Source: a virus. Taken from it: a DNA stretch of 64,000 bases. This document shows, piece after piece, positions 14,326-49,677 of this stretch. A program made the position numbers and the translations under genes. The notes under the pieces are model-generated. The model did no database searches. It saw only the letters and a program-made list of their open reading frames with translations, and was not told the DNA's origin. Location of the stretch: the IMG/VR virus record IMGVR_UViG_3300012009_000091, positions 32,001 through 96,000 of that record; one strand, 5' to 3'. Numbering within the stretch: the first letter of the stretch is position 1; the number at the start of each line of letters is the position of its first letter.

Positions 14326-15429
14326 ATGCTTCAAGTAGATCCTTACGACGATAATCGAGAGCGGTTGAATCAACTTCCAGTCGAACTACGTGATGAATTG
14401 CTCAAAACAGGAGCAGATTTGACGTCGACACTCAATTCTCTTCCAGATGTTGACTTTGCTTTGGTCGTAGTGGCTCCCGGTGAGGACAATCGGATTCATA
14501 AGTTTCGGAAGTTTGCGTGTGTGGATGAGGGAAACACAGCCCAGTCCGTGTGGTACTTTTTACAGACGCGCAATCATCTGCCGGATGAGATGCGGAAGGT
14601 GGCTGCACAAAATCTTTTGCGAAGTGCGCGGGATTTTGAGCTCACCCCACCGCCCGATTTGGTGCTGTTGGCCGAAGAGGAAGATCCTTTGCCCGTCACC
14701 AATGTTGTTATCTCCTCTATGGACAAGATCGCGTCGTTTCTTCCTCCGCCAGAAACGGTGGAAAAGATCGCGTCCGAACCTGTTCCTGTGATCAACTGCA
14801 AAGAAGATGTCTTCGACGCTCTTGCTTACTACCACGACAACGCCTTTGCTTTGGATGGGTGGGAAAAGCAAGCACTGGCCCGTCTGCTCGTTCCAGCGGC
14901 CGAAAGATTCGAGGTATCTGTGCCGACGGAGATCGAAAAGCGCGCGGCAGATACCTATGCCGCGGATCTGGTGGAAGCCGTTGTGTGTCGTCAGGTTATG
15001 TTGGCTCCTGAGGATGACTCAGAAGAGTCTTTCCAGAAGGTCGCTCATGTGAACGGCCAGTATCAAAGTCTACTGTGGAGCCGAGCTGATATGGGCCCTA
15101 CCGAATTCGCGCATGAACTTGATCGGATCGACAGTCTGGCTCAACTAGACGGATTTGTTCCAGATGCGGTGTATTCGACCTTCGGGAAGGTTGCGCAAAC
15201 TCAGCCAGATCCTATTTTTGATAACGGGGTCAACAAGCTTTATGAGGACGAGCTCGTCTGGTTTTGTCAGAGCTATCCCAAGATGGTGGAAAACCAATTC
15301 GGAGAGGAGCTTGCAACCGCCATTCTGAAGAAGCCCGTTGTGATTTTTCAATCCCTACCGAAGCCAGTTCAGGTCGCGTTAGCTCGTCTGATTGCTCAGA
15401 AGAAGTCTGAGTACGGGGTTCAACTGTGA
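14326..15429 (+). CDS. Probable head/core protein with multiple KxA motifs
   Basis: RKVAA, DKIAS, EKIAS, EKRAA, QKVAH, GKVAQ; first gene of the virion operon. Confidence 0.6.
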   Translation: MLQVDPYDDNRERLNQLPVELRDELLKTGADLTSTLNSLPDVDFALVVVAPGEDNRIHKFRKFACVDEGNTAQSVWYFLQTRNHLPDEMRKVAAQNLLRSARDFELTPPPDLVLLAEEEDPLPVTNVVISSMDKIASFLPPPETVEKIASEPVPVINCKEDVFDALAYYHDNAFALDGWEKQALARLLVPAAERFEVSVPTEIEKRAADTYAADLVEAVVCRQVMLAPEDDSEESFQKVAHVNGQYQSLLWSRADMGPTEFAHELDRIDSLAQLDGFVPDAVYSTFGKVAQTQPDPIFDNGVNKLYEDELVWFCQSYPKMVENQFGEELATAILKKPVVIFQSLPKPVQVALARLIAQKKSEYGVQL

Positions 15430-16235
15430 CGAAGGACGCCAAACCGGAAGTTCGTGTTCTGACGATCCACGGCTGGTTGGACGATCTGGATACTCTTTTC
15501 CAGGATGTCCCCGAAGGGACAGTAGATGATTTTGAGATCGACGAAGATCCTGATGAGGATCTCGATCCAGGCGTGCCCGAAGTAGTCACTACAACGTTTA
15601 CGTTGACAGATCTAGAACCGACCACCCTTCTTTTTATTCTCCGACATCAATTCGGAAAAGATTGGTGGCAGCAAGATCGAGAAGCTCTGTTTGAGCTACT
15701 ACGCACTATCGGGCAGACGGTGGATGAGCCTGACAAAGACGCTATTCGTGCGCTGCAACTTCTTCATGTGGATGAGGCGTTTTGGACAGAGTGGGAAGTA
15801 TTTAACTGGATCACGCAGGGGCTGACCGACGGACAAGTCGATTTCACCAATCTGCCTGTTCTCTCGCTGAAAGACATCATGCGATCGATGTTGATGGCCA
15901 TGATCGTAGCACAGAGTCAAAAGGTAGAAGCACATTACAGCGAGGAGACTCTCTCGTACATTGCTGCAACGTGCGTGGAGCACGGTCTTTGGGCTTTGCC
16001 CTTCCCTATGGATGTGGCACAATCCCGCATTCAGCAGATCTTGAAGTGGCGGGGAGCGTCGGATCTGCCTATTGGTCACGTGAAGCAGCTCGTCAAAGAG
16101 AGTGCGACTCCTACGCCCGTAGACGAAGTGTCTACGCAAGCGTACCGATTCCGACTCCTCTTGGATTTTGCCATTCAAGGTCTGAAAGAGACGAAGTCGG
16201 AAATTGACGCTTACAGAGACGCAGTCAAGGAATAG
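15426..16235 (+). CDS. Hypothetical virion-module protein
   Basis: GTGA overlap with the upstream gene; precedes the portal candidate. Confidence 0.65.
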   Translation: MTKDAKPEVRVLTIHGWLDDLDTLFQDVPEGTVDDFEIDEDPDEDLDPGVPEVVTTTFTLTDLEPTTLLFILRHQFGKDWWQQDREALFELLRTIGQTVDEPDKDAIRALQLLHVDEAFWTEWEVFNWITQGLTDGQVDFTNLPVLSLKDIMRSMLMAMIVAQSQKVEAHYSEETLSYIAATCVEHGLWALPFPMDVAQSRIQQILKWRGASDLPIGHVKQLVKESATPTPVDEVSTQAYRFRLLLDFAIQGLKETKSEIDAYRDAVKE

Positions 16236-16238
16236 AAT

Positions 16239-18236
16239 ATGTTCGGATCTTCGGCCAGTCTTTCCTCTCCGATGACCCAGCGGCATAATACACGCGGCTC
16301 TGGGCGAATCGGGATTAACTACCCGAACCCCTTCTTTGATTTGTCGCAGATTTACCTACCCCAGAACATGCGCTCGTTGTTCAAGTGGTGTAGATACTAT
16401 GCACTCACGTACGGGCCCATTTTCGCGTTTGTCACCAAGATGGCCTCGTACGCATTGACTCGGTTAGTATGGGGAAGTGATGCCCAGGCAGACCCTGAAA
16501 GGAGGGCTAATCAGAATCTAGCGACGCAGTGGAAAGATTTCTTTGAAGATACGCTGCAGATCTACAAGGCGTGTTATCGAGGTGGGCTGCATTACTGGAC
16601 GTACGGTAATTGGTACTTGTCTATTCACTATCCGTTTGATCGGTGGCTCGCCTGTCCTTCATGTAAACATGAGATGCTGGCGAGAAGATTCCCCAAGAAG
16701 GGGTATCGGTGGCATAGTTACAAGTTCCACGGTAGGTGTACAGCATGCGGATCTGATGTGACTTTCAAAGTCAAGGATGTGCCAGTCCGTTCAAGCAAAC
16801 GCATCAAGCTCAAGCTGTGGAATCCCGAACGTGTGTATCCAGTCGTCAATGAAGCGACGGACGATGTGGAATACTACTATAAGCCGACTCAACAGCTCAT
16901 CAAACGTATCGATCGAGGCGATCGGAAAGTCGTAGAAACTACGCCTTGGCCTTTTATTCAAGCGGCTAAGAAAAATAAAGACGGGTTGGTCAAGTTCAAC
17001 AATCGGAACTTCTTGCACATCTCCGCTCCATCACCCGACGGAAACGAGACGGGGATGGGGCACCCGCCGATACTAGCGGCCATCAAGGATGTGTTTCACT
17101 TACAGTTGATGAAGAGGGCACAGGAGGCTAATGCTGTAGAGCGGACTATTCCTCTTACCGTAGTGCACCCTCTCCCGATGGGAGATGATACGATCAATCC
17201 TCTTCAGTCCACGAATTTAGTCAACTTGATGGACTTCCTCAAAGATGAGGTGGCGATCGCGCGCCGAGATCCCAACTACATTCCATTTTCTCCTCTTCCT
17301 GTCGGCACGTCGCATATCTGGGGAGAAGGGAAGAATCTCCTCCTCGTCCCGGAGATTCGTGGGTGGACCGAGTTGATTGCAGCTGATCTCGCGGTGCCCA
17401 TTGAGTTTATGTTTGGCGGGATGCAATGGTCAGGGTCCAACGTCAGCTTGCGTATGCTCGAGAATCAGATCCTGACTTTCACGACTGGGTACAAGCAGGT
17501 CACTAGGTTCGTCACCAAAGCTGTGGCTAGATTCTTATGGTGGCCTGAGTGTCCGCATGACTGGACTCCGTTCAAAATGGCCGATGACATACAGCTCAAG
17601 CAGCACATGTTGATGTTGTCGCAGCTGAACAAGATTGGTGATTCTACTCTACTCTCTCACTTCGGGAAGAACCCTGTCGATGAAAAAGCCGACATCGAAG
17701 CTAGCATGAAGCAAGCGAATCGCATCGCAAAAGATCAGTTGCTTGCTCAAGCGGAGGCTCAGGTTGAGGCCATGGAGATGCAGCAGAATGCTCAGATGGA
17801 GATGCAGCAACAGCAGAGTACGGGACTTCCTACCGAAACCAGTCAGGCTGCGGCGGGAGCGCCACCTCCTGTGCAAGAGGAGGAATCACAAGAGGAGTTT
17901 GCATATCGTATGGCGGAGCAGCTTGTGAATCAGTCTGAAGATGTGATCCAGCAGACGTTACAACAGGTGTCTGCTCAGTCTCCAGAATTAGCTCAGTTCA
18001 TCTATCAGTTGATTCAACAGCTTCGCGCGGAGACGCAGCAGCCTGTGCAATATGGTCAGCAGCCTGCCCAACAGCCTGCCCAACAGCCTGCTATGGGCGG
18101 ATACAATCAAGCTCAGGTTGTTAGCGGTCCAGAAGGCCAGCTACATCAACAATATGCAGCATCGACTCGACAGATGATGCAGCCTCAACCGCAGATGCGT
18201 CCTCCACAGCGGGGACCTGCTAGTACAGCAATCTGA
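16239..18236 (+). CDS. Probable portal protein with zinc-ribbon insert and Gln-rich tail
   Basis: Portal-like layout (YGNWYL, WNPERV, GHPPIL, LAVPIEFM); CPSC/CTAC insert. Assigned from pattern and context. Confidence 0.65.
   Translation: MFGSSASLSSPMTQRHNTRGSGRIGINYPNPFFDLSQIYLPQNMRSLFKWCRYYALTYGPIFAFVTKMASYALTRLVWGSDAQADPERRANQNLATQWKDFFEDTLQIYKACYRGGLHYWTYGNWYLSIHYPFDRWLACPSCKHEMLARRFPKKGYRWHSYKFHGRCTACGSDVTFKVKDVPVRSSKRIKLKLWNPERVYPVVNEATDDVEYYYKPTQQLIKRIDRGDRKVVETTPWPFIQAAKKNKDGLVKFNNRNFLHISAPSPDGNETGMGHPPILAAIKDVFHLQLMKRAQEANAVERTIPLTVVHPLPMGDDTINPLQSTNLVNLMDFLKDEVAIARRDPNYIPFSPLPVGTSHIWGEGKNLLLVPEIRGWTELIAADLAVPIEFMFGGMQWSGSNVSLRMLENQILTFTTGYKQVTRFVTKAVARFLWWPECPHDWTPFKMADDIQLKQHMLMLSQLNKIGDSTLLSHFGKNPVDEKADIEASMKQANRIAKDQLLAQAEAQVEAMEMQQNAQMEMQQQQSTGLPTETSQAAAGAPPPVQEEESQEEFAYRMAEQLVNQSEDVIQQTLQQVSAQSPELAQFIYQLIQQLRAETQQPVQYGQQPAQQPAQQPAMGGYNQAQVVSGPEGQLHQQYAASTRQMMQPQPQMRPPQRGPASTAI
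18060..18092 (+). repeat. 12-bp tandem repeat encoding QQPA x3
   Basis: CAGCCTGCCCAA units in the portal C-terminus. Confidence 0.75.
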
Positions 18237-35021: not shown

Positions 35022-35385
35022 GCGGACACAGTATACATCGTTCGTACTGTGAGCACACGAACCCTCTCTTGACTGCCTCGTTCAAACAGACCCGATGACT
35101 CACTGTGGCGATCAGCAGATCCTGAACAGCCCATCGTTGCTCTGTATTGAGTTGCCGAAGAGCTTGTCGATCGATGTTGTGCGCTTGCAGAAGCTCGGCC
35201 ACGTCATCCGCATCGACCGTTCGTATCAGTTTTCGTAGAAGGTCTACATCCCGTAATTCGGCTAGTTTCACTTCCAAGTCCTCAGTGGTTCGGTGTTGAT
35301 ACTGATTCAACACACTTCCGCATCGACAGTCCGAAAAGAATCGCGTCTCTGTCCGTTTTTCTATGATCGTCTGTATAGTACGCAT
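34969..35385 (-). CDS. Cys-rich hypothetical protein
   Basis: GGAGG before MRTIQTII at 35385; CRC and CxxxxxCxxC motifs. Confidence 0.65.
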   Translation of the reverse strand: MRTIQTIIEKRTETRFFSDCRCGSVLNQYQHRTTEDLEVKLAELRDVDLLRKLIRTVDADDVAELLQAHNIDRQALRQLNTEQRWAVQDLLIATVSHRVCLNEAVKRGFVCSQYERCILCPHGQELTAREIAEYALSG

Positions 35386-35409
35386 TACTGTCCTCCATGT
35401 GATATGGTT

Positions 35410-35416
35410 CTTATAC
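35410..35416 (-). promoter_or_regulatory. GTATAAG motif
   Basis: 25 nt upstream of ATG 35385; CTCCGTATAAG is shared with the 14251 site. Confidence 0.7.
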
Positions 35417-35425
35417 GGAGGCGTC

Positions 35426-38435: not shown

Positions 38436-38458
38436 GTTGTGTGCTCCTACCCTACGAT
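38429..38458 (+). promoter_or_regulatory. Sigma70-type promoter for the head/tail operon
   Basis: TTGACA (38429-38434), 18-nt spacer, TACGAT (38453-38458). Confidence 0.65.
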
Positions 38459-38498
38459 TGCAGAGGAAAACGTCTTTGTGGAACCCCAAGAGGCTTCC

Positions 38499-39578
38499 TT
38501 GAGTGTAACAATTGACAAAGCATTAATCACCAGCCTTGTAGACAAAGCTGCGGATTTGTTCATTGGAGACTGTTCTCCTGACCTGAGTACGGCTGTTGCG
38601 GATGCTATTGGGGATGTGCCATTCAATGAGGACCAGGTGGCGCGAATTGCACAAGCGACTAACCAGACAGTTTGGGCTCGATTGTCGTCCAGCAGAAAAC
38701 CGTGTACGGTAAGGTTTGAGCCCGCAATCGTCGAGGTTATCATGGAAAAGACAAAGGGAGCGCCGGAGAAAACAAAAACGGCGAATCGGGACATGCGCTG
38801 GGCTACAGGTCCTCAAAATCATTTTGAGGACCTGGTAGGTGCAGTTCTTGAGAAGACGGCAGCCAAAAGTAAGAAGCCGTCGGTTAAAAAACAAACCAAG
38901 ATGCGTTCGATCACCCCCAACTATTGGCGGGCACGAAATCTTCGTCGGAAGGGCTCCCAAGCTCCGGGAGCTCCGCCTACAAAAACACCGGAGATCAAAC
39001 GCGCTGCTCAGCTTCTTCCAGATACCCAATCGAGTTGGGGTCGTATTATCGAACAGTTGAAGACTGCGCAAGATGAGCTTGAGCTGCGTTTGCACAAACA
39101 CGAACAAAATTTCGAGGAAGAGCTGTCGGCGTTGAGTAAGACCGCGTCAGATCTTTTGTACGATGGTATCTCCCAGGAGACCGTCGAGAAGGCAGTGCTC
39201 GCTTCAGCAGACGAGCAAACAGGGCCTGCTTTAGTTGCTTGGCTCCAGAAACACGCCTTTCCCAAACATCCTGTGTTCCGAGATGAGTTTTCCTTCTTCG
39301 ATAAAAAGGCTCAACAAGTCTACGGCAACGTTACGGTATGGGATCCGATTTCTCTAGAGAAGACTGCCGAAGCCGACGATGTCGAAGAGTTCGATTCTAC
39401 TGCGCTCAATCCGGATCACCCTCTTGTCAAAGCGGCGGAAAGTTTGTGTGGCTTTCGGGTTGAGGGCCAACGAGCATCTGTCGCCATCGAAAAAATCCAA
39501 CAGCGGATTAAAGAGGCGTCTGATCTGAAACAAGCGGGAATTGAGGTGCCATTTCATGCCAGCGTTGGACACAGCTAA
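38499..39578 (+). CDS. Head core protein with many KxA motifs
   Basis: DKAAD, TKTAN, EKTAA, IKRAA, LKTAQ, SKTAS, QKHAF, DKKAQ, EKTAE, VKAAE, IKEAS, LKQAG; probable TTG start after GAGG. Confidence 0.65.
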   Translation: MSVTIDKALITSLVDKAADLFIGDCSPDLSTAVADAIGDVPFNEDQVARIAQATNQTVWARLSSSRKPCTVRFEPAIVEVIMEKTKGAPEKTKTANRDMRWATGPQNHFEDLVGAVLEKTAAKSKKPSVKKQTKMRSITPNYWRARNLRRKGSQAPGAPPTKTPEIKRAAQLLPDTQSSWGRIIEQLKTAQDELELRLHKHEQNFEEELSALSKTASDLLYDGISQETVEKAVLASADEQTGPALVAWLQKHAFPKHPVFRDEFSFFDKKAQQVYGNVTVWDPISLEKTAEADDVEEFDSTALNPDHPLVKAAESLCGFRVEGQRASVAIEKIQQRIKEASDLKQAGIEVPFHASVGHS

Positions 39579-40653
39579 ATCCCTTCTCGGGTTCGGCCGG
39601 GGTACGGTTGATGATACGTTCACAGGTGCCGCTGGGTTAGGTTCTCTAGCCATGTCTGGGTGGTCTCCGTTGAAAGCCTGGACACATCCTCTATACTACA
39701 GCGCAATGGGTCGCTCACCGACAGCGGCGTTGAAGGGGTACGGTACCACCAAACGGCGTCTGTTAGGGTTGCCTGAACCGCGGTCACAGTCCAATCGACA
39801 GCAGTTTCGGAAAACGGGGGAGGAGAGTTCCATGCAGAAGACAGCGCTGGGAAGATTAGTCAGAAAGGCCAAGAATTGGTTGGCACCAGAACTCGGCACT
39901 CTTGCGCGACAAGCAGCTGATCCCGGCCGTCGTACTCTCCGTCCGTCTCTTCGAGCTCCTCTTGCTGTAGCTGGCCTTTCCGCTGCTGCGTATGGAGGCG
40001 CGCAAGGATTAGGATACTTGGGCGATCAAGCTAGTGTAATCGGGCGAGCGCGTGGGTATCGTCAGTTGATGAAAAAGTATGGACCGGAGCTTCACGCGAT
40101 TGCTGAGCAGACACATGTGCCTGTACCTGAAGAGCGGATGCGTGATGTTTATAACGCTCTCTACAAGATGTCTCCAGATGTTGCGAAAGAGCCGACTCTC
40201 GCTGCAGCTCAAATGGCGCCGCTTATTCGTGAAGCTGGTTCTCCGAGTGGGACTATGGAGGGGGCGGAGGGGCCTGTTCCTCGTGTTATGTTGGAGGGGG
40301 GATTGGAACAAATGGCTGTTCCATCTCGTATCCAGTCTGGGATGCCAGACTCGTTTGCGGACCGTACTCAACCATGGGTACGCAGTGCAGTCGGCGCTTT
40401 TGGGGACTACGACTTAAACACGGCGGCCCAACGTGAGATGATGAGAGCTGAGTTTCAGCAACCTGATTTGAAAGCCAAAAGTGACTTGGCGGCTGATCTG
40501 AGTTCGTTGGGTCGTCGACGTATGGAATTGCAAGCTCTCTATCGACAGAAGGCGGATGCTCTGAGAGCTGGAAACCAGACGGCTATTCAAGCTCTTGAAT
40601 CGCGGATTCGCCAACTTCGCACAGGTAGACCAGAGGCAGCGTCGAGGATTTGA
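39556..40653 (+). CDS. Basic, Gly/Ala-rich probable internal virion protein
   Basis: GAGGTG RBS; internal MQKTAL followed by LAVAGLSAAAYGGAQGLG. Confidence 0.6.
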   Translation: MPALDTAKSLLGFGRGTVDDTFTGAAGLGSLAMSGWSPLKAWTHPLYYSAMGRSPTAALKGYGTTKRRLLGLPEPRSQSNRQQFRKTGEESSMQKTALGRLVRKAKNWLAPELGTLARQAADPGRRTLRPSLRAPLAVAGLSAAAYGGAQGLGYLGDQASVIGRARGYRQLMKKYGPELHAIAEQTHVPVPEERMRDVYNALYKMSPDVAKEPTLAAAQMAPLIREAGSPSGTMEGAEGPVPRVMLEGGLEQMAVPSRIQSGMPDSFADRTQPWVRSAVGAFGDYDLNTAAQREMMRAEFQQPDLKAKSDLAADLSSLGRRRMELQALYRQKADALRAGNQTAIQALESRIRQLRTGRPEAASRI

Positions 40654-43340
40654 TGGAGAAGTTCATCAAAATAGGCGCCAGCTCAGGGGGCCATTGGGAC
40701 TCATTTTACCACATCATGCGCGGAGATCGTGCGGACATGGTGAAATGGGCGGCTGCTGGAAGTTATCATCCACGTATCGAAAGATACCTTGCGACAGAGC
40801 CTTTTACTCGTCGTGACCTCGTGCTCGTCGTGGTTCCTTTAGGAGCTCATGAGGCTTGGGGCTGTAATGTCAATGGAGATGCATTCCAGCAAGAGCAGAT
40901 TGAGCCGGCTCATCGAGATTGGGGTCACGAGAGTTTCGTCCATCACGCCAATGCGTTTGTTCATCATCAGAACAAAGATCCACAGAAAGGATTCGGAAAA
41001 GTACCTATTGCGGTATTTGAACCCGTGATGCGGAGAATCGAAGCCGTCTTCAAGCTTGACCGAGACAAGGCGGATCGTGTCGGGGCTGGCACCTATGTCC
41101 GAAAGCTCGATGAGGGGGGGTCAGCTGATCTCAGCATGGGGTGTTTTCCGGCTGGCACGCTCGTTACTATGGCGGACGGTACTCAGAAACCAATCGAGAC
41201 GGTAGTGGTGGGGGATCTGGTTCTGACGAGTACAGGTCGAGCGCAGCGTGTAACGTCATTACACCCTCGTGAGTACGAGGGGCCACTACTGCGCATCAAA
41301 GTTTTTGGGCAGATAGAAGTGCGAGTTACTCCCGAACACCCGTTTTGGGCCACCCCCCGATCTTCGGTGATCAAAAATCGACGTTGGGTAGGAAAGGAGG
41401 ACGGCGCTCAGTGGGTACACGCAAAGTGTTTGCAGGAAGGGGATTATCTCACCACTCCCGTACTCCAAGAGGTTCTGACTCCGTCATATGCGTCACCTGC
41501 GCTGGCGCGACTGCTAGGATACTACCTCGCTGAGGGTCACGTACTCTATAATAAAAAAGGTGAGTACGTCGGCATCGAGCTGGCTGTAAATCGGATGGAC
41601 GCAGTGCTGGACGAGATCGAAAGCCTGTGTCGTGATTTCGGGTCCAGAAACGCGCCAGCTATCCGTCCACGCACAAATTCCAAACACGCGTTGGCAATTC
41701 AGATATTCGACCCACACTTGGCGGAGCTTTGTTTCAACCACTGTGGGAGTTACGCACGCCACAAGCGACTATCCGAAGATGTCATGTGGTGGGATCCAGA
41801 GTTGCAGCGACAATTGATTGGGGCCTACATTAATGGGGACGGGGGACAGTTGGAATCATGGCAACCTGGGGCTGTGGTCCTCTCCACGTTATCTGATCAT
41901 CTCGCCGCGCAGATCCCGCAGCTTCTCTTTCGTTGTGGCGTCAAATCCAACACTCAGTTGTTACGACATGAATCCGGAGGTGGATTCAATAGCAGTGCCA
42001 CCTTTGAACACCAGATCTACATCGGGAAACATCAAGTTCCGTCGTTGTTGGATGTAGCGCGTCTCAAAATGCCAGAACTGAGTCGTGATACGAACCCTGG
42101 GGCAAAGTTGGAAGGCGGCCTTGTCTTCTCGAAACTCCGAGAGATTTCCACGGAGTTTTTTCAAGGTACGGTATTCAACTTCGAGGTGGAAGAAGACGAG
42201 TCGTATGTGGTGGAGGGCCTAGCTGTACACAATTGCAAGGTGCCCTATGACATTTGTTCCATTTGCGGCCAGGAGTCTAAGTCTGTCGCGAATTATTGTA
42301 CCTGTCTCAAAGATGAGATGTTGAAGATCGAACCGGATGGTCGGATTCACTGTGCCTATAATCCTCGTCCTCGATTCTTCGATCTCAGCATTGTTATTGT
42401 TCGGGCAGCTAAAGAAGCTGCCATCCTAGAAAAGGCCGCGGCAGCGGGTATGGTCATGGATCAGAAAGACCCAGTAGATTGGACGACATCTTCCTTTTCA
42501 TTGGATGATGATTCTGGTCTTTATTTGACTAAAGCCGCCAGCGCGAAGGAAGCTGACACCAAACTAGCGGAAATCGAGAAGAAGCTCCCTGAAGTCTTCC
42601 ATGAGATGGTCTGGCCGATGATACGTTCTGAGGAGGCTCTCCCTGAGAGTCTTATGGATCGGTTGTCGGATCATACTCTCCCTAAAAGTCTGGCCTCTAC
42701 TTCTGCTTGTGGGATTGTCCTTCGCCCGCGTGAGTTCCAGCGTTTGTATCTTAGGCGAACAGGGCGCCCAGAAATGGCTGAGGAATTACACAAAAAGCGG
42801 TGTATTTTTTCTCCGCGTGATAGTCGCCATGCTTATCGTCTCCAATCGGATGACATAGAAGAGAAGATTCTCCCCTTGTTACACGATCTCCTCCCGAAGA
42901 GGAGCGTGTTCCAGCCGTTTGTGAGTAAGCGCATTATCATTGTTCGTCTTCGCGGGGAGAGGCCGACTGAACCAGAACTTGTAGAAAAAACCAGTGAGGC
43001 CCTTGACGAAGTCGGAGAAGAGTACGCAAAATATATCAACGGTCTGGCTCGCTTGCCATCTCTGCTTAAATCTGCGATGGTACGACATGGAGATCTTTAT
43101 GATGCATTTGCGGCAGAATCATATGACCCGATGCGAAAGGTCGCCGGATCTCTTGCATCTATCGTTGGGGCTGGTGTTGGTGTCGTATTGCCGGTATACT
43201 TGATGGCGTCAAAGTGGCGTGCAGATGCGACTCGTGGATATGATCCGGGACTACTTAAGGGAATTGTGGCTGATTACCCCGCCACAACATCCATTGGGGT
43301 GTTGACAGGCCTGCGTTATTTGGGCAAAAGAGGGAAGTGA
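40653..43340 (+). CDS. Prohead maturation protease precursor containing an intein
   Basis: NGDAF, HHQNKDP (His), DLSMG (Ser), FFDLSIV..AAKEA: HK97/assemblin-like motifs; lies upstream of scaffold and capsid genes. Confidence 0.75.
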   Translation: MEKFIKIGASSGGHWDSFYHIMRGDRADMVKWAAAGSYHPRIERYLATEPFTRRDLVLVVVPLGAHEAWGCNVNGDAFQQEQIEPAHRDWGHESFVHHANAFVHHQNKDPQKGFGKVPIAVFEPVMRRIEAVFKLDRDKADRVGAGTYVRKLDEGGSADLSMGCFPAGTLVTMADGTQKPIETVVVGDLVLTSTGRAQRVTSLHPREYEGPLLRIKVFGQIEVRVTPEHPFWATPRSSVIKNRRWVGKEDGAQWVHAKCLQEGDYLTTPVLQEVLTPSYASPALARLLGYYLAEGHVLYNKKGEYVGIELAVNRMDAVLDEIESLCRDFGSRNAPAIRPRTNSKHALAIQIFDPHLAELCFNHCGSYARHKRLSEDVMWWDPELQRQLIGAYINGDGGQLESWQPGAVVLSTLSDHLAAQIPQLLFRCGVKSNTQLLRHESGGGFNSSATFEHQIYIGKHQVPSLLDVARLKMPELSRDTNPGAKLEGGLVFSKLREISTEFFQGTVFNFEVEEDESYVVEGLAVHNCKVPYDICSICGQESKSVANYCTCLKDEMLKIEPDGRIHCAYNPRPRFFDLSIVIVRAAKEAAILEKAAAAGMVMDQKDPVDWTTSSFSLDDDSGLYLTKAASAKEADTKLAEIEKKLPEVFHEMVWPMIRSEEALPESLMDRLSDHTLPKSLASTSACGIVLRPREFQRLYLRRTGRPEMAEELHKKRCIFSPRDSRHAYRLQSDDIEEKILPLLHDLLPKRSVFQPFVSKRIIIVRLRGERPTEPELVEKTSEALDEVGEEYAKYINGLARLPSLLKSAMVRHGDLYDAFAAESYDPMRKVAGSLASIVGAGVGVVLPVYLMASKWRADATRGYDPGLLKGIVADYPATTSIGVLTGLRYLGKRGK
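41142..42233 (+). mobile_element. Intein with LAGLIDADG homing endonuclease (364 aa)
   Basis: Starts CFPAGTLV, block B VTPEHPF, LLGYYLAEG and LIGAYINGDG, VFNFEVEEDESY, ends VHN followed by Cys. Confidence 0.96.
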
Positions 43341-43348
43341 GGTATCCG

Positions 43349-43639
43349 ATGGTCAACTCGCAAGAACAATTGGCCCAGGCAATTCGACAGTTGGTGAGTT
43401 CTGATGGACGGCTTACCAAGTATGCAGCTGCTCAACATCTCGTTCAGAACGAGCAGTTGATGAAGCTGGCACAAGATCGACAGTACTCTGATGAGCTACA
43501 GGGGCAGATCATGTTCGAATCCTTTCTCGATGAATTGGATAAGATCGCATCTGCTGAAATGGCCACAGGTGAACGTTTTTCTCTGACGGACTATGAGAAA
43601 CGCCATCCCCTCGAGTTCGTTCAATACGTATGGAGCTGA
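43349..43639 (+). CDS. Small head core protein
   Basis: TKYAA, MKLAQ, GQIMFESFLDELDKIAS. Confidence 0.65.
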   Translation: MVNSQEQLAQAIRQLVSSDGRLTKYAAAQHLVQNEQLMKLAQDRQYSDELQGQIMFESFLDELDKIASAEMATGERFSLTDYEKRHPLEFVQYVWS

Positions 43640-43640
43640 G

Positions 43641-44432
43641 ATGTCAGGCGATATCCTTTCCAAGTTGTTCTCACAGATCCCTCCTGACCAAGGTGACTTT
43701 CAGAAGACCGCTGGACAATCGGCTCTAACCGACCAGATCCAAGGTTTCTTGGACATGTTCAAGGGTGCCGAAAACAACACCGAGTCGGTGGAAGAGCAAG
43801 CCGAAGAGAAGGCGAAAAAGAAAAAGGAAGAGGCGCGCGGAGCCGCTACGACTTCCGGGAAGGGAACTCAGAGTGAGATCCCGCCCGAATTTCTTGCTCA
43901 GCAAGAGAGTGAGGACAAGAAAAAAGAGGAAGGTTCTGAAAAGGAAGCTTCTTTGAGTCCGGGTGCCGTTCGACAAGCTATCGACTTTTTGGTGCAGAAC
44001 CAACTGCAGTCTTCTTCCGTCAAGCTCGCTGAGGATCAAAAGCGGACCAAGTTGGCCGCCGCTGCCGAGCTGTCTCAAACCAATTGGGGAGGGAAGGTCA
44101 AGGCGGCAGCGGCAGCTGATGAACTGGCCAAGATTGCCTACTATGAAGCGGTCGGTGTTCCCTTCGAGGCTTACTTGAAGATGGCGCAAGGCGCAGATCC
44201 AGCGGCGGCGATGGCTGCCGCAGCTCCGAGTGGTCCTCCGCCTGGAGGCCCCCAGGGACCTCCTCCGGGACCTCCTCCGGGTCCGCCAGCTGAAGGCCCT
44301 CCGGGACCAGGGCCGGGCGGCGGTCCGCCGGTAGATCCCAATGCGGTTCTCGAGGATCTGATGGCACTGCCTCCGGAGGTACAAGCTCAGATCCTCGCAG
44401 CCGTCAGCGGTGGCGGTGGCGGAGGACAGTAG
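43641..44432 (+). CDS. Scaffold/core protein with GPPPG repeats
   Basis: QKTAG, EKEAS, VKLAE, TKLAA, DELAKIAY, LKMAQ; Pro/Gly repeat at about 44230-44330. Confidence 0.65.
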   Translation: MSGDILSKLFSQIPPDQGDFQKTAGQSALTDQIQGFLDMFKGAENNTESVEEQAEEKAKKKKEEARGAATTSGKGTQSEIPPEFLAQQESEDKKKEEGSEKEASLSPGAVRQAIDFLVQNQLQSSSVKLAEDQKRTKLAAAAELSQTNWGGKVKAAAAADELAKIAYYEAVGVPFEAYLKMAQGADPAAAMAAAAPSGPPPGGPQGPPPGPPPGPPAEGPPGPGPGGGPPVDPNAVLEDLMALPPEVQAQILAAVSGGGGGGQ

Positions 44433-44457
44433 TTCATCGAACAAGGGAGTCGCGAGG

Positions 44458-45429
44458 ATGAAGTTCTCACAAATCGAAGATATCATCGCCGAGTCGCTCG
44501 AGGCGGCCGAAGAGGAACGGCGTCAACATTTGAAGGTGGCGTCTGTTCCTATTTCAATAGAGGGTGCTGACCTCGATCATCAAGTCGAAAAGTTAGCAGC
44601 TGTTTACGACTATTTGGCTCGGGAGCCCGATGCCATCGCTAAAGTCTCGATGGCACCGCACAATGGGAGTAATTCCCCAGAAGTGCAACCGCCTACAGAC
44701 GAGTCTCGGAGCACCACTGAGATGATGAGTGCGCAGACCACGCCTAACAGTCCTCACACTGATCAGGACGGGGTTGTGTCTGAACCATCCACTGACGTGG
44801 ATCGAGCTACCGCTGACTTTCAAAGTCCAGAGCCGGTCTTGAAGCAGTCGTCAGATTTGCAAGCACATGTTTATGCGACTGCTCAGATCTTCGATGCGGC
44901 CAACAAAAACCGCATGCCTGATATTGATAAGATCGCCGCTGACTCTGGTCTCAGTCCGGATACTGTCCATGGGATCCTGAAGAACATTGTCAGTACCAAG
45001 AAGATGGCTCAGGAGGACATTCCGGCTGCGAAGGAGGAAGAGGAGGGGCCTCCTCCGAAAGAGGAAGGGAACGAAGGACAACAGCCGGCACCTGAACCGA
45101 CAGATCAGCCTCAAGAAAGTAAAGAGAAGGACAAAAAGTCGTCAGACCAGCCTTCTCCCAAAGTAGCCGGGGCGGAAAACGAGTCGGCTGCTTCGCCTAC
45201 CGAGTTCGCGGCTGGCGAGGGAGGGTCCACTTCTCCAGAAGCCCAGTCCTTTTTGTCTACCCACGAGGCGGCTATTTCCTTCAAAAAGAGGCAAGCTAAG
45301 TTGACGAGCAATCAGAAGGCCCTGAATGGCTTGTTTTCTACTAGTGCCTATCAAGACCCCGTCGTCCACCGGCACTTCGAACATGCCAATGAAGCCGGGG
45401 TAAAGACTACGCCGGGAGGGCAGTCATGA
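44458..45429 (+). CDS. Acidic, low-complexity scaffold-like protein
   Basis: LKVAS, EKLAA, AKVSM, LKQSS, DKIAA, KKMAQ, PKVAG. Confidence 0.65.
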   Translation: MKFSQIEDIIAESLEAAEEERRQHLKVASVPISIEGADLDHQVEKLAAVYDYLAREPDAIAKVSMAPHNGSNSPEVQPPTDESRSTTEMMSAQTTPNSPHTDQDGVVSEPSTDVDRATADFQSPEPVLKQSSDLQAHVYATAQIFDAANKNRMPDIDKIAADSGLSPDTVHGILKNIVSTKKMAQEDIPAAKEEEEGPPPKEEGNEGQQPAPEPTDQPQESKEKDKKSSDQPSPKVAGAENESAASPTEFAAGEGGSTSPEAQSFLSTHEAAISFKKRQAKLTSNQKALNGLFSTSAYQDPVVHRHFEHANEAGVKTTPGGQS

Positions 45430-45806
45430 CTGATCAACGTCAAGAATTGTTTGCCAAAACGGCCCAGCTTCTGCGGAATTTGAATTCTGAAAGACTGGCC
45501 GTCATCCGCGAGCGAGACAACGCTCAAGAAAAGGTGGCGGACGCCGAGAAAAAAGATCGTGCATATGCGCTTGCCAAAACGGCCGTCACTCGTGGTATCA
45601 TTGATGATGACTTCGAGAGCGTGCAAAGCTTTGTTGATGATGTTCTCGATTCGAGTCGACCATTTGAGGTCATCGAAGAAGCGACCAAGATGGCGACAAG
45701 CAGTGCACAGTTCTCAGTCCGGGAAGTTCCGGAGGATGAGACAGGAACCGGCGGACGTCGGGTCGATGCTCTGACCAGCTTGATCATGGGGTCTGTAATC
45801 GAGTAG
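45426..45806 (+). CDS. Small coiled-coil scaffold-like protein
   Basis: AKTAQ, EKVAD, AKTAV, TKMAT; directly before the decoration and capsid genes. Confidence 0.6.
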   Translation: MTDQRQELFAKTAQLLRNLNSERLAVIRERDNAQEKVADAEKKDRAYALAKTAVTRGIIDDDFESVQSFVDDVLDSSRPFEVIEEATKMATSSAQFSVREVPEDETGTGGRRVDALTSLIMGSVIE

Positions 45807-45833
45807 TGAACTCGAGAAGTAAGGAGAATAATC

Positions 45834-46331: not shown

Positions 46332-46382
46332 TCGGATTAGCTGAGAACGTTCCGAGGACACATCTTCAGGGAGATGAATAGG

Positions 46383-47450
46383 ATGAGTGGAACCAACGAC
46401 CCCATGCAGTTCAATCAGGCTTTCGTGGCCTATTTGGACAATGAAGGGGGAATGCAGAAGATGGCCGCAGCCGGTCGTGCTTTCGTACGTGATCACCTGA
46501 GAGAAGAGTCGGCAGCTCGTCGACTTCTTCCTCCGGAAAGGCTGTCGCCGCAGAGCCCCAGAGTAATTCCGTCGCTCAACTCCGACACGCTAGTTGTGCG
46601 GAAGGACCTTGAGCCTGGGAGCCGCGCCGTTTCATTGACATTTGGCGCTTCTCCTGCAGCCTCGATCGTCAGTACGCAGCGAATCGATATTCCGGTCTTC
46701 ACGATCAGCTCAGAGATGTTCCATATCCGCGAGCAGCATCTGTTGGCGTATGAGGCTCCAGTCACGCGACTCGTCGAAGATAACACTGGGAAGGACATCC
46801 AAGAGATCGAAGATCTCGAGTGGAGGACCTACTCGGAGGCGGCTGTCGTATCAACGGGTCGCGTGGTTCGAGGAGCACAGGCGGCGGCAGATGCTGCTGT
46901 TCACGGCAATGGCTCTGGATTTCGTGGCGAAATTGAGCGTCCGGATTTTGTGGACCTTGCCAACGTTATGTTGGATGACGGCAATCGGAAGCGTCTCAAC
47001 AAAATCTGGATGAACGACATCGACTTCAACACTATCTTGAAGTGGACGGTCGAAGATGTCGGATCGGCTCATCAGGGTGAGACGTTGGTCAAGGGGTACA
47101 CCTACGATAAGGTTCTGAACTACCTCATCGTGCGTACCATCAAGACCGACCTGCTTCAGACGGGCAACGTCTTTGGTTATGCCGAACCGGAGTTTCTCGG
47201 GTTCTTCTTCATCCTGAATGACGTGAAGTTCTACATCGACAAGGTGGCGAACCTCATTCGGTGGCAGGCCTGGGAAGACATCGCAATTTCCATTTCGAAC
47301 ATCTCCTCGGTTGCCAAGGGGGAGCTGTACAACGGTCAAGGTGGGGGGGACAACAGCCCCGACGCGTTGCCCGAGGAAGAGGACCTGTTCCAGCAGACGA
47401 ACCCGGTGTTCCAGGGTGGAACGGCGTTCCCGTCAGTCACTCTCTACTAA
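46383..47450 (+). CDS. Major capsid protein (HK97 fold expected)
   Basis: About 355 aa, position after protease/scaffold/decoration genes, N-terminal QKMAA site, DIQEIED spine-helix-like segment. Confidence 0.75.
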   Translation: MSGTNDPMQFNQAFVAYLDNEGGMQKMAAAGRAFVRDHLREESAARRLLPPERLSPQSPRVIPSLNSDTLVVRKDLEPGSRAVSLTFGASPAASIVSTQRIDIPVFTISSEMFHIREQHLLAYEAPVTRLVEDNTGKDIQEIEDLEWRTYSEAAVVSTGRVVRGAQAAADAAVHGNGSGFRGEIERPDFVDLANVMLDDGNRKRLNKIWMNDIDFNTILKWTVEDVGSAHQGETLVKGYTYDKVLNYLIVRTIKTDLLQTGNVFGYAEPEFLGFFFILNDVKFYIDKVANLIRWQAWEDIAISISNISSVAKGELYNGQGGGDNSPDALPEEEDLFQQTNPVFQGGTAFPSVTLY

Positions 47451-47484
47451 TCCAGAAGCAGAGAGTGCGATAAAGGAGGGCTCC

Positions 47485-48182: not shown

Positions 48183-48194
48183 AGGGCCGGGTTA

Positions 48195-48683
48195 ATGACC
48201 GTCCAATCTCCAGCTCAAACTCTTCAAACCTTCGTTACCGAAGTCCGGAATTATCTCCGCGATTTTCCTTCTCTCAATCTTCTCTTAAACAATCAGGAGG
48301 AGACGTCTGATCGACAGCTCCTTTGGATTATTGCTGAGGTACTGGATGATTGGAACCAGTCTACGCCTCCGATCGGGTTCTTGGATATCAATCAGATCCC
48401 TCGAAGTTACCTCCTGAAGGGTGTCGTCGCTGAAGTTTTGATGTCGGTGGCTATCTTGAATCTTCGTAACTCCTTGCGATACACTGACGGACAGGTTACG
48501 GTGGACCTGGATAAGTATCAGCAGCTCATGGCTATGCGGCAGATATTGCGACAGGAGTACGAAGCGAAACGGAAGGCGTGGAAGACGTCTCGGAATTTGG
48601 AGATGGCTTTAAGTTCTTCCACTGGTGTACACTCTGAGTACTTCTACGTGAGCTGTGGGTGTTTCAGTACGTACACAGACTAG
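48195..48683 (+). CDS. Probable head-tail adaptor (neck) protein
   Basis: Helical, VRNYLRD...DWNQSTPP...YTDGQVTV; position after the capsid gene. Confidence 0.55.
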   Translation: MTVQSPAQTLQTFVTEVRNYLRDFPSLNLLLNNQEETSDRQLLWIIAEVLDDWNQSTPPIGFLDINQIPRSYLLKGVVAEVLMSVAILNLRNSLRYTDGQVTVDLDKYQQLMAMRQILRQEYEAKRKAWKTSRNLEMALSSSTGVHSEYFYVSCGCFSTYTD

Positions 48684-48693
48684 GAGAGATGAG

Positions 48694-49170
48694 ATGAACT
48701 TGTTCGAGCAACTCGTTCTGGGAAAGACGGCTGAAGAAGTTCCGTCGGCAATGACTGAACCGCAGACGGAAGAAGAACAGATCCGGGCTCTAGTCGATGA
48801 GCTGGATATGAACGACCTCTCCAACGAAGAGCTCTTGGAGCTGGCTGAGCAGGCCCGCGCTCAAGAGCTTCAGTTGACTGACGAAGACGACGAGGGCATG
48901 GAAGAGATGGACGCTGGAGCGAAAACTGCGTCTGTCGCAGACTATGAGCAATATGGAGAAGCGCTGAAGCAGGCCAATGCGTTCCTGGGTCGCGTCCGTG
49001 CTCATGCTTTCTGGGATGAACTCGAGAAGATCTCTCAATCTGATGATTTCTCGGAAGAGAAAAAGGACGAGAAGAAGAAGGACAAGAAGAAGAAAGAGGA
49101 GATGGAGAGTGAAAAAGAGGCGAGTTCCAAATTCGCCGAGGCGCTTCGTATCATCTCCGAAGGACTATAG
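48694..49170 (+). CDS. Acidic head core protein
   Basis: GKTAE, AKTAS, LKQAN, GRVRAHAFWDELEKISQ, EKEAS, SKFAE. Confidence 0.65.
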   Translation: MNLFEQLVLGKTAEEVPSAMTEPQTEEEQIRALVDELDMNDLSNEELLELAEQARAQELQLTDEDDEGMEEMDAGAKTASVADYEQYGEALKQANAFLGRVRAHAFWDELEKISQSDDFSEEKKDEKKKDKKKKEEMESEKEASSKFAEALRIISEGL

Positions 49171-49179
49171 GAGAGCACA

Positions 49180-49677
49180 ATGAGCAATCTGTTCATGATT
49201 CCGTTTGTCGAACCCTCTCCGTCGGAAAAAACGGCTTCGGGTGGGCCTGACGAATACGCCCAAGTTTTGGTGTCTGGAGACCCCGAGTCAATCGCATCCA
49301 TCATGAGTGATGAGGATCTGGCCTTTCACAAGTTGGGTGAGGATCTGATGGAGAAATTGGCCGGAGGATCTCCTCTGACCGAGCAGGATGTTGATGTTCT
49401 GGATGACACTGAGGTCGCGGCCCTGTCACTCTTGAGTGATGGAAACGAGCCTGGACCTGAGATCATGTACAAAGTGGCTGCGTATCTCGAGTTCTACAAT
49501 GAACTCGCCGCCAATGAACGCGCTGGCCGTAACTTTGCGCGTGCGTATGTCCAGCAGCAGAAACTGGCTTCTGTCCGACAGGAAGAGGACGTCCAGAAGT
49601 TGGCCAATCATCCGGGTTTTCAGATGGCTATGGCGACGAAGGCACAGCAGATTCTCCACCACCGTGGAGTGAAGTAG
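49180..49677 (+). CDS. Acidic head core protein
   Basis: EKTAS, HKLGE, EKLAG, YKVAA, GRNFARAYVQQQKLAS, QKLAN. Confidence 0.65.
   Translation: MSNLFMIPFVEPSPSEKTASGGPDEYAQVLVSGDPESIASIMSDEDLAFHKLGEDLMEKLAGGSPLTEQDVDVLDDTEVAALSLLSDGNEPGPEIMYKVAAYLEFYNELAANERAGRNFARAYVQQQKLASVRQEEDVQKLANHPGFQMAMATKAQQILHHRGVK

What the first reader, a model, noticed from the sequence alone, without database searches (positions are those of the whole stretch)
14326..49677. K-x-(A/S/G) motif saturates head proteins: inferred prohead protease specificity
Seen: 3-12 copies each in 14326, 31409, 38499, 43349, 43641, 44458, 45426, 48694, 49180 and the protease itself, plus one near the capsid N-terminus (QKMAA). By eye it is rare in spike, sheath, tube and terminase. 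Established: T4 gp21 and phiKZ gp175 cut head proteins after short motifs ending in Glu; herpesvirus assemblin cuts after Ala. Inference: the 40653 protease cleaves after KxA, so motif density marks core proteins and implies an elaborate inner core of at least nine proteins.
Basis: partly seen in the sequence, partly recalled or inferred. Interest (0 to 1): 0.8.

Follow-up and report, generated by a model that had tools for sequence, protein, structure and literature searches.

The report
Lys-x-Ala head-protease cleavage code
The head-assembly proteins of this uncultured 167-kb phage, and of relatives as distant as Salmonella phage Arash, carry about three times more Lys-x-Ala signals than chance allows, most likely marking where the phage's own T4/herpes-type capsid protease cuts, a rule not seen in the papers I could search; no cut has been measured.

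Summary
The enrichment is real, but only for K-x-A. K-x-S and K-x-G sit at expectation. In the 13 plus-strand genes from 38439 to 49677, chosen without reference to the motif, K-x-A occurs 60 times against 22.4 expected (P=4e-11). It occurs in-frame only and uses all Lys and Ala codons.

K-x-A is also the top X-x-Y pair in 22 of 24 related IMG/VR head loci, and in the cultured phages Arash and Vibrio D69, whose capsid proteins are only 21-23% identical. The family consensus is [L/M/F]-E-K-[T/I/V/Q]-A-[S/A].

ORF 40650-43340 is a T4 gp21-fold prohead protease interrupted by an intein (VIA Z=10.2 to 5jbl). Its conserved K-x-A sites lie in the disordered segments around its catalytic domain. The capsid protein keeps an invariant Lys29 and near-invariant Ala31.

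Best reading (about 0.65): K-x-A is the protease's recognition motif, probably cut after Ala. Cutting after Lys is not excluded. Most motif-rich proteins would be cut into pieces of 81 aa or less, so they look like disposable scaffold or core proteins. A retained nine-protein inner core is not shown.

This scan made the same call on at least six other phage genomes. I found no paper reporting the motif.

The parts
40650..43340 (+). Prohead (head-maturation) protease, 896 aa with intein (ATG at 40653). Catalytic domain with H105/H106 (HHxNK) and S162 (S-M-G), then a disordered linker, a helical C-terminal domain and a C-terminal tail.
   Evidence: Model of the intein-less L001 homologue: VIA Z=10.2, rmsd 3.0 A, 144 aa to T4 gp21 5jbl; herpes proteases follow at Z 4-5.8. 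Foldseek top hit 5jbl. phrog_18299 'head maturation protease' E=1.4e-9 for the L001 homologue. tblastn to phage G gp19 at 4e-8 and PaBG protease at 3e-6. Invariant H, H, S and D in alignment A1.
41142..42233 (+). Intein (Hint plus LAGLIDADG), residues C165-N528, followed by the +1 residue Cys529. It is inserted 3 residues after the invariant Ser162.
   Evidence: Pfam Hom_end_hint, Intein_splicing and LAGLIDADG_3. Clean 364-aa gap against the intein-less L001 homologue; exteins 52% identical.
40743..40751 (+). N-terminal K-W-A of the protease (aa 32-34), a predicted autoprocessing site.
   Evidence: In the same alignment column, 26 of 28 homologues have K-x-A and 2 of 28 have K-x-[SG]. It lies in the pLDDT<50 segment 1-35 of the model.
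42411..42569 (+). Linker cluster of five K-x-A sites (aa 588, 595, 628, 633, 638) between the catalytic and C-terminal domains.
   Evidence: Conserved columns (21/28, 23/28 and 20/28 K-x-A) in an otherwise variable, gap-rich linker with pLDDT<50 (model residues 219-284). All five align to K-x-A in L001.
43137..43145 (+). C-terminal K-V-A of the protease (aa 830-832), a predicted site releasing the C-terminal tail.
   Evidence: 27 of 28 homologues have K-x-[A/S/G] in this column. It lies in low-pLDDT segment 460-479 of the model.
38439..39578 (+). It has 13 sites, with the largest site-free piece 70 aa. Probable scaffold or core protein.
   Evidence: 13 against 3.5 expected, p=0.0005. A motif-rich ORF sits at the same syntenic position, two genes upstream of the protease, in all 8 relatives mapped. 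6 of 13 sites align to K-x-A in L001.
43337..43639 (+). K-x-A-rich small protein, 100 aa, 3 sites.
   Evidence: 3 against 0.4 expected, p=0.002. Syntenic motif-rich ORFs in relatives.
43593..44432 (+). K-x-A-rich acidic, Pro/Gly-tailed protein, 279 aa, 8 sites.
   Evidence: 8 against 3.1 expected, p=0.0065. Synteny. 4 of 8 sites conserved in L001.
44410..45429 (+). Acidic protein, 339 aa, 5 K-x-A sites. Marginal on its own.
   Evidence: 5 against 2.8 expected, p=0.14. Three sites align exactly with L001.
45426..45806 (+). K-x-A-rich small protein, 126 aa, 4 sites.
   Evidence: 4 against 0.7 expected, p=0.0015. A syntenic motif-rich ORF of about 120-140 aa in 5 of the 8 relatives mapped.
46374..47450 (+). 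Major capsid protein, 358 aa.
   Evidence: 24% identity to Arash gp226 MCP by blastp, E=2e-21. phrog_2522 major head protein. 258 relatives in IMG/VR.
46458..46466 (+). K29-M30-A31 of the MCP, a predicted maturation site that would remove a propeptide of about 31 aa.
   Evidence: K29 invariant and A31 at least 90% conserved in alignment A2. Nearly all of the MCP homologues aligned show K-x-A in this column; three have K-x-S. Arash and D69 have K-E-A at the aligned place.
48655..49170 (+). K-x-A-rich very acidic protein, 171 aa, 5 sites.
   Evidence: 5 against 1.6 expected, p=0.012.
49180..49677 (+). K-x-A-rich acidic protein, 165 aa, 5 sites.
   Evidence: 5 against 0.9 expected, p=0.002.
14326..15429 (+). 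K-x-A-rich acidic protein, 367 aa, 8 sites, two genes upstream of the portal.
   Evidence: 8 against 1.8 expected, p=0.0005. Largest site-free piece 77 aa.
31409..33316 (+). Protein of 635 aa with 8 K-x-A sites, including one at aa 11-13. It would leave large pieces of 177 and 222 aa. It is not the portal.
   Evidence: 8 against 2.5 expected, p=0.0035. Fragment sizes. The portal is 16239-18236.
16239..18236 (+). Portal protein (context). Not K-x-A enriched: 4 against 2.8.
   Evidence: 28% identity to Arash gp204 portal, E=8e-74 (count).
35363..37078 (+). Large terminase (context). No K-x-A: 0 against 1.3.
   Evidence: Pfam GpA_ATPase. tblastn to annotated terminases. Count.

Best explanation
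K-x-A, in fuller form [L/M/F]-E-K-[T/I/V/Q]-A-[S/A], is the substrate recognition motif of the phage's own prohead protease, ORF 40650-43340. This is a T4 gp21 / herpes assemblin-fold serine protease that first has to splice out an intein.

Proposed mechanism, all inferred: inside the procapsid the protease cuts itself at conserved sites. This frees the catalytic domain from its N-terminal 34 residues, from its helical C-terminal domain and from a C-terminal tail, much as herpes UL26 does. It then removes about 31 residues from the capsid protein. It also cuts the acidic, fast-evolving proteins encoded around it (38439, 43337, 43593, 44410, 45426, 48655, 49180, plus 14326 and part of 31409) into short peptides, clearing the head for DNA. 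Short N-terminal leaders ending in E-K-x-A on a few small proteins would be removed in the same way.

Shown: the enrichment, its conservation, the protease fold and the placement of sites. Inferred: that cutting happens at all, and that the scissile bond follows Ala (P3=Lys, P1=Ala, P1'=Ser/Ala).
For: 1. Statistics. K-x-A is 60 against 22.4 in a gene block chosen without the motif (P=4e-11). Controls R-x-A, A-x-K, KA, KxxA, K-x-S and K-x-G are flat. It occurs in-frame only (60 against 3 and 4 in the other frames) with all Lys and Ala codons used, so selection acts on the protein.

2. Replication. It is the top X-x-Y pair in 22 of 24 related loci with no motif-based gene choice. It is also top in Arash gp218-225 (44 against 19.7, P=2e-6) and in Vibrio D69 (50 against 20.7, P=3e-8), while the D69 tail genes show 4 against 9.9.

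3. Synteny without similarity. The motif-rich ORFs keep their places around the protease and MCP although BLAST finds no homologues beyond L001.

4. Selection on the motif. Against L001, 24 of 42 sites align to K-x-A with the middle residue free. Motif K/A residues are conserved in 54 of 84 cases against 86 of 278 for other K/A residues (Fisher P=9e-8).

5. Protease identity. VIA Z=10.2 to T4 gp21, herpes proteases next. PHROG hit. tblastn to annotated head maturation proteases.

6. Site placement. Conserved sites fall in the low-confidence segments 1-35, 219-284 and 460-479 of the model, flanking folded domains. MCP K29 is invariant.

7. Precedent. A-x-E at P3-P1 with Ser at P1' in SPN3US (PMC10052503). 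A logo from 1246 family sites shows S (25%, 3.6-fold) or A right after the Ala.
Against: No cleavage has been measured in any member of the group.

The Arash virion proteome reports 95-100% coverage for several motif-rich proteins in a search that, as far as the methods I read go, did not look for non-tryptic ends. Taken literally, that argues against complete cutting after Ala. The coverage figures look unreliable, though: one protein has 100% coverage from 2 peptides.

The MCP sequence after the motif is highly conserved and is predicted helical in a poor model (pLDDT 50), so conservation of K29/A31 alone does not prove a site. A second invariant K290-x-A292 sits in the MCP core and is unlikely to be cut.

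Pfam protease models do not match. Correspondence of H105/H106/S162 to the gp21 catalytic residues was not checked residue by residue.
Confidence: 0.65

Rival explanations
1. The same protease and the same motif, but the cut falls after Lys ([L/M/F]-x-K then x-A). That gives P3 hydrophobic and P1 charged, exactly the T4 (L/I)-x-E geometry with Lys in place of Glu.
For: A hydrophobic residue two positions before Lys is the strongest upstream signal (L/M/F 2.6-2.9-fold). L-x-K and M-x-K come next after K-x-A in Arash and are among the top five pairs in D69. Ends produced by cutting after Lys look tryptic, which would fit the near-complete coverage reported for Arash head proteins.
Against: P1' would then be mostly beta-branched or bulky (T/I/V/L), and Ala would be an unusually strict P2'. 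The strong Ser/Ala preference right after the Ala matches the P1' preference of SPN3US gp245 (PMC10052503) and, from general knowledge, the A-then-S sites of herpes assemblin.
Confidence: 0.17
2. K-x-A is a non-cleaved assembly signal, for example a repeated contact or capsid-targeting motif that binds the MCP, the portal or the protease's C-terminal domain.
For: Motif-rich proteins of Arash are found in mature virions. Short N-terminal leaders ending in E-K-x-A recur on unrelated small proteins. No cutting data exist.
Against: A binding motif would not be expected at the domain boundaries of the protease itself, in disordered linkers. The three-residue P3-x-P1 spacing with a free middle residue is the hallmark of this protease family's sites (PMC10052503). 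Targeting and cleavage are not exclusive; from general knowledge, T4 capsid-targeting sequences end in a gp21 site.
Confidence: 0.1
3. The motif is read by another enzyme: a host or second phage protease, or a lysine-modifying or cross-linking enzyme.
For: Nothing specific. It is simply not excluded by sequence analysis.
Against: No second protease was seen in the head module. The motif travels with the gp21-fold protease across hosts as different as Salmonella, Vibrio and uncultured hosts from varied environments.
Confidence: 0.05
4. Chance, amino-acid composition, helical periodicity or a DNA-level signal.
For: The proteins are rich in Lys, Ala and Glu.
Against: Shuffles that keep composition are exceeded. 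Neighbouring spacings, the reversed pair and Arg are flat. The DNA pattern is in-frame only. The result replicates in 22 of 24 relatives and in 2 distant cultured phages.
Confidence: 0.01

Closest known systems
Bacteriophage T4 prohead protease gp21 (PDB 5jbl) with its (L/I)-x-Glu sites in gp22, gp67, gp68, gp23, gp24 and the internal proteins
   Same: Same fold (VIA Z=10.2, 144 aa). Encoded in the head module. Motif has P3-x-P1 spacing with a free middle residue. Many sites in acidic core or scaffold proteins, one near the MCP N-terminus, and sites in the protease itself. Short cleavable N-terminal leaders on small cargo proteins resemble T4 capsid-targeting sequences (the T4 facts are from general knowledge).
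   Different: About 10% sequence identity and no Pfam match. Lys and Ala take the place of Leu/Ile and Glu. The protein is much longer (about 530 aa without the intein), with an extra helical C-terminal domain. The gene carries an intein.
phiKZ gp175 and SPN3US gp245 prohead proteases, (S/A/G)-x-E and A-x-E sites (PMC10052503, PMC5694885)
   Same: A large myovirus with many head proteins cut at a three-residue code. Ser is preferred at P1'. The protease cuts itself. The virions of the cultured relative Arash carry RNA polymerase subunits, as phiKZ-like virions do.
   Different: P1 would be Ala (or Lys), not Glu. There is no detectable sequence relationship among the substrates. Cleavage in SPN3US is proven by mass spectrometry; here it is only inferred.
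Herpesvirus assemblin (UL26 / VP24), cutting (V/L/I)-x-Ala then Ser at the R and M sites
   Same: Same fold family (Z 4-5.8). P1 Ala with P1' Ser/Ala would match. The layout is also parallel: protease domain, cleavable linker, helical domain, then a cleavable C-terminal tail, like UL26's protease, R site, scaffold and M site (general knowledge).
   Different: P3 is Lys rather than a hydrophobic residue. The scaffold role of the C-terminal domain here is only an inference.
Head maturation proteases of Bacillus phage G (gp19) and Pseudomonas phage PaBG
   Same: Detectable sequence homologues of the catalytic domain (E=4e-8 and 3e-6). The phage G gp19 tail reads GADRQAKILEKVAS, like the family's GADKTAKxMxKIA. 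K-x-A is enriched in gp19 (8 against 2.4) and gp21 (7 against 2.8).
   Different: The block-wide signal in phage G is weak (25 against 13.3, not significant after correcting for 400 pairs). Its MCP has R-V-A at what looks by eye like the corresponding spot. No cleavage motif has been published for these phages in the papers searched.

Membership tests
gp21/assemblin-fold prohead serine proteases (T4 gp21, HK97 gp4, herpes assemblin) | Characteristic protease fold | tested here: met
   AF2 model of the intein-less homologue L001:5594-7192 (52% identical over the exteins). The catalytic domain has pLDDT 80-95. VIA Z=10.2, rmsd 3.0 A, 144 of 164 residues of 5jbl_B, well above the next rows; herpes proteases at Z 4-5.8. 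Foldseek top hit 5jbl, prob 1.0.
gp21/assemblin-fold prohead serine proteases (T4 gp21, HK97 gp4, herpes assemblin) | Match to curated sequence models of the family | tested here: inconclusive
   No Pfam family at E<=1 for 28 homologues, and no PDB sequence hit with the profile. But phrog_18299 'head maturation protease' matches at E=1.4e-9 in 9 of 28 members, and tblastn finds annotated head maturation proteases of phage G, PaBG and Erwinia and Dickeya jumbo phages.
gp21/assemblin-fold prohead serine proteases (T4 gp21, HK97 gp4, herpes assemblin) | Conserved catalytic His, then Ser, in that order | tested here: inconclusive
   Invariant H103, H104, S160 and D168 in L001 numbering (window H105, H106, S162) in alignment A1. 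The order His then Ser fits. The intein sits 3 residues after the Ser. Residue-level superposition on the gp21 triad was not available.
gp21/assemblin-fold prohead serine proteases (T4 gp21, HK97 gp4, herpes assemblin) | Encoded in the head-morphogenesis module, upstream of the MCP | tested here: met
   The gene lies 3 kb upstream of MCP 46374-47450. The same order holds in the 51 related loci with a protease homologue, and in Arash and D69.
gp21/assemblin-fold prohead serine proteases (T4 gp21, HK97 gp4, herpes assemblin) | Proteolytic activity on head proteins at a defined motif | not testable with these tools
   Only indirect evidence: motif enrichment, conservation and placement.
Inteins (Hint domain with homing endonuclease) | Hint and LAGLIDADG domains, Cys1, C-terminal His-Asn, nucleophile at +1, and a clean insertion relative to intein-less homologues | tested here: met
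   Pfam Hom_end_hint at 32.8 bits (cut-off 32.1) and LAGLIDADG_3 at 22.8 (cut-off 22.5). C165...H527-N528 then C529. A 364-aa gap against L001.

The most novel reading that the evidence does not exclude
K-x-A is the cleavage code of a deep, previously unrecognised branch of gp21-fold proteases. The branch would run from Arash-like and D69-like myoviruses and hundreds of uncultured 110-195-kb phages out to megaphage G. The same code would also act as a removable capsid-loading tag, because short leaders ending in E-K-x-A sit on unrelated small, partly membrane-active proteins. If so, the packaged and injected cargo of all these phages could be read straight from sequence.
Probability: 0.3. Interest if true: 0.7.

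Novelty: new variant of a known kind. Interest (0 to 1): 0.55.

Why it matters
As far as I know and could find, every gp21-type phage prohead protease whose sites have been mapped (T4, phiKZ, SPN3US) cuts after Glu. A Lys-x-Ala rule would be a new specificity for this ancient fold, which phages share with herpesviruses, and its P1/P1' would resemble the herpes enzyme.

In practice it gives a sequence-only way to do three things in a large, almost unannotated group of big phages (258 IMG/VR relatives, Arash, Vibrio D69/D181/D148): find head-internal, scaffold and possibly injected proteins; predict mature protein ends; and annotate Arash gp222 as the protease, where it is now labelled 'structural protein'.

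It can be tested at once in a cultured phage.

Tried and rejected
- Near-identical DNA search in the phage collection: no match.
- Pfam and PHROG scans of the motif-rich proteins: no informative families.
- Pfam on 28 protease homologues and a PDB sequence-profile search: nothing relevant. The fold search was needed.
- AF2 model of the MCP with 25 homologues: pLDDT 49.8, too poor to place K29-A31 in the fold, so no fold search was run on it.
- Arash paper and supplements: no peptide-level data and no mention of a protease or cleavage.
- Literature searches for a K-x-A code, or for cleavage data on PaBG or phage G: nothing. The P1 paper gave only one mapped MCP cleavage position (120 residues removed), with no motif relevant here.
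- PaBG: its protease gene is not next to head genes, so no local test was possible.
- 31409 as the portal: rejected. The portal is 16239-18236.
- Proline avoidance around the motif: Pro is depleted on both sides, so it does not tell which bond is cut.
- Rejected explanations: composition, helical periodicity, a general basic-residue effect, and a DNA-level motif.
Full report
**Setting.** The window is bases 32001-96000 of a single 167,069-bp contig whose ends overlap by 55 bp, so it is a complete phage genome. It has no close DNA relative among 50,697 deposited phages. The nearest cultured relatives are Salmonella phage Arash and Vibrio phages D69, D181 and D148. Their capsid proteins are 21-23% identical by tblastn, their terminases 27%, and the Arash portal 28%. 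IMG/VR holds 258 relatives of the capsid protein, on contigs up to 195 kb.

Gene identities in the window:
- Portal: 16239-18236.
- Fused beta/beta'-like RNA polymerase: 18236-24478.
- Large terminase: 35363-37078.
- Major capsid protein (MCP): 46374-47450.

- Per-ORF shuffles that keep composition give the following K-x-A counts against expectation: 14326 (8 against 1.8), 31409 (8/2.5), 38439 (13/3.5), 43337 (3/0.4), 43593 (8/3.1), 45426 (4/0.7), 48655 (5/1.6), 49180 (5/0.9) and the protease (9/4.3). ORF 44410 is marginal at 5/2.8.
- Pooled, K-x-A is 68 against 21.4 (P=8e-16). It is the most enriched of all 1600 residue pairs at spacings 0-3.
- K-x-S (13/14.8) and K-x-G (10/12.4) are flat.
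- R-x-A, A-x-K, KA, KxxA and KxxxA are flat, which rules out a general basic-residue or helical-periodicity effect.
- To avoid circular selection I took every plus-strand gene from 38439 to 49677. That gives 60 against 22.4 (P=4e-11). The extended motif, hydrophobic-x-K-x-A, is 30 against 5.9 +/- 2.3.
- Genome-wide, 6 of the 7 ORFs with p<0.01 lie in this window.
- The DNA pattern AAR-NNN-GCN is in-frame 60 times, against 3 and 4 in the other frames. All Lys and Ala codons are used. 29% of the Lys residues in the block begin a K-x-A, against 8.8% elsewhere.
- Tail proteins and terminase sit at or just below expectation. Their low raw counts mainly reflect low Lys content.

**Replication in relatives.**
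- In 24 related loci of about 20-21 kb centred on the MCP, I took all plus-strand ORFs near the MCP with no motif-based choice. K-x-A was the top X-x-Y pair of 400 in 22 of them, for example 59 against 24.5 in L047.
- The same holds in Arash gp218-225: 44 against 19.7, P=2e-6, followed by L-x-K and M-x-K.
- It also holds in Vibrio D69: 50 against 20.7, P=3e-8. Its tail genes show 4 against 9.9.
- The motif-rich ORFs keep fixed places: one lies two genes before the protease and two or three lie between the protease and the MCP. Yet BLAST finds no homologues for them beyond the closest relative, L001.
- Against L001 (32-52% identity), 24 of 42 sites align to K-x-A with the middle residue free. 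Motif K/A residues are conserved in 54 of 84 cases, against 86 of 278 for other K/A residues in the same proteins (P=9e-8).
- A logo from 1246 sites in 130 enriched ORFs of the related loci gives [L/M/F]-E-K-[T/I/V/Q]-A-[S/A]-A. There is no information outside positions -4 to +4 relative to the Lys.

**The protease.** ORF 40650-43340 carries a 364-aa Hint plus LAGLIDADG intein at C165-N528, with +1 residue C529. The intein is inserted three residues after an invariant Ser in an S-M-G motif.
- Intein-less homologues of 519-650 aa align with invariant HHxNK, S-M-G and Asp residues.
- The closest intein-less homologue, L001:5594-7192, is 52% identical over the exteins. Its model has a confident catalytic domain.
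- That domain's best structural match is T4 gp21: VIA Z=10.2, rmsd 3.0 A, 144 aa. Herpes proteases follow at Z 4-5.8.
- The L001 homologue matches PHROG 18299 'head maturation protease' at E=1.4e-9.
- tblastn finds annotated head maturation proteases of phage G (4e-8), PaBG (3e-6), and Erwinia and Dickeya jumbo phages.
- Pfam models do not match.
- In Arash the homologue gp222 is annotated only as 'structural protein'.

**Where the sites are.** In the protease family alignment, K-x-A is conserved at five places:
- the N-terminus, in 28 of 28 sequences counting K-x-[SG];
- twice just after the catalytic domain (GADKTAKxMxKIA);
- twice in the gap-rich linker (EKTAS, GKxA);
- before the C-terminal tail, in 27 of 28 sequences.

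All of these fall in segments of the model with pLDDT below 50 (residues 1-35, 219-284 and 460-479), which flank folded domains.

The layout is therefore: protease, cleavable linker, helical domain, cleavable tail. This parallels herpes UL26, a comparison I draw from general knowledge.

The MCP has an invariant K29 and a near-invariant A31. Arash and D69 have K-E-A at the aligned place.

A few small proteins carry N-terminal leaders of 12-23 aa ending in E-K-x-A: 26213, 26566, 51410 and 57294.

**Interpretation.** The simplest account is that K-x-A is the protease's recognition motif. This follows the T4, phiKZ and SPN3US precedent of a P3-x-P1 code that fills head proteins (PMC10052503).

The scissile bond is not known. 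I favour cutting after Ala, giving P3 Lys, P1 Ala and P1' Ser/Ala. The strong Ser/Ala right after the Ala matches the P1' preference of SPN3US and the herpes Ala-then-Ser sites. Cutting after Lys instead would put bulky beta-branched residues at P1'.

Cutting after Lys remains possible. It would give P3 hydrophobic and P1 Lys, the T4 geometry. It would also be invisible to tryptic proteomics, which would fit the near-complete coverage reported for Arash head proteins. Those coverage figures look unreliable, however.

**On the 'inner core of at least nine proteins'.** Seven of the motif-rich proteins are acidic and would be cut into pieces of 81 aa or less. That resembles disposable scaffold or core proteins. 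ORF 31409 and the MCP would merely be trimmed. Arash homologues by position are detected in virions, so some material may stay inside. A structured inner body is not shown.

**Breadth.** In phage G the K-x-A signal is weak block-wide (25 against 13.3) but clear in the protease gp19 (8 against 2.4) and in gp21 (7 against 2.8). The gp19 tail reads GADRQAKILEKVAS. This hints that the code reaches further than the Arash-like group.

**Novelty.** I found no paper describing this motif. The Arash paper mentions neither a protease nor cleavage.

This scan's own notes record the same K-x-A reading on at least six other phage genomes and once more on this genome. Those are unchecked AI notes. My conclusions rest on the tests above.

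The kind of system is well known: a prohead protease with a short code. The proposed specificity and the protease subfamily are new.

Noticed in passing
window 41142-42233: The prohead protease gene carries a 364-aa Hint plus LAGLIDADG intein, inserted three residues after the invariant Ser of the S-M-G motif. Related phages have the gene both with an intein (937-1339 aa, so some may hold more than one) and without (519-650 aa). The protease can only become active after splicing.
   Followed up: partly
window 18236-24478 (and portal 16239-18236): A single 2080-aa ORF fuses the beta-like and beta'-like RNA polymerase modules that are separate genes in Arash (gp206 and gp216). In Arash these are among the most abundant proteins in virion preparations, which suggests a packaged RNA polymerase. 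The ORF is not K-x-A enriched (9 against 9.3).
   Followed up: partly
window 26213-26521, 26566-26991, 51410-52090, 57294-57701: Small proteins, several with Gly-zipper-like segments, begin with leaders of 12-23 aa ending in E-K-x-A. Two of them share a near-identical NTVLQAFVTAFEKCA leader. They look like T4-style cleavable capsid-targeting sequences.
   Followed up: partly
window 47241-47249 (MCP K290-V-A292): A second K-x-A inside the conserved MCP core has an invariant Lys and a near-invariant Ala across relatives. It is probably buried and structural rather than a cleavage site. This is a caution against reading every K-x-A as a site.
   Followed up: no
L085 (Bacillus phage G, gp19-gp21): The C-terminal tail of the phage G head maturation protease carries K-x-A sites in the same context as this family (GADRQAKILEKVAS...LLKIAS), and gp21 is enriched too. 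The code may extend to megaphage G.
   Followed up: partly
L081 (Salmonella phage Arash gp222, record 146737-148212): This gene is annotated 'structural protein' but is the intein-less homologue of the prohead protease. It is an annotation gap in a cultured, testable phage.
   Followed up: yes
genome 116208-116444 (-) and 6605-9172 (+), outside the window: Further ORFs have K-x-A near the N-terminus: a 78-aa Gly-zipper protein with three K-x-A sites in its first 40 residues, and an 855-aa protein with two early sites. They may be additional substrates encoded far from the head module.
   Followed up: no
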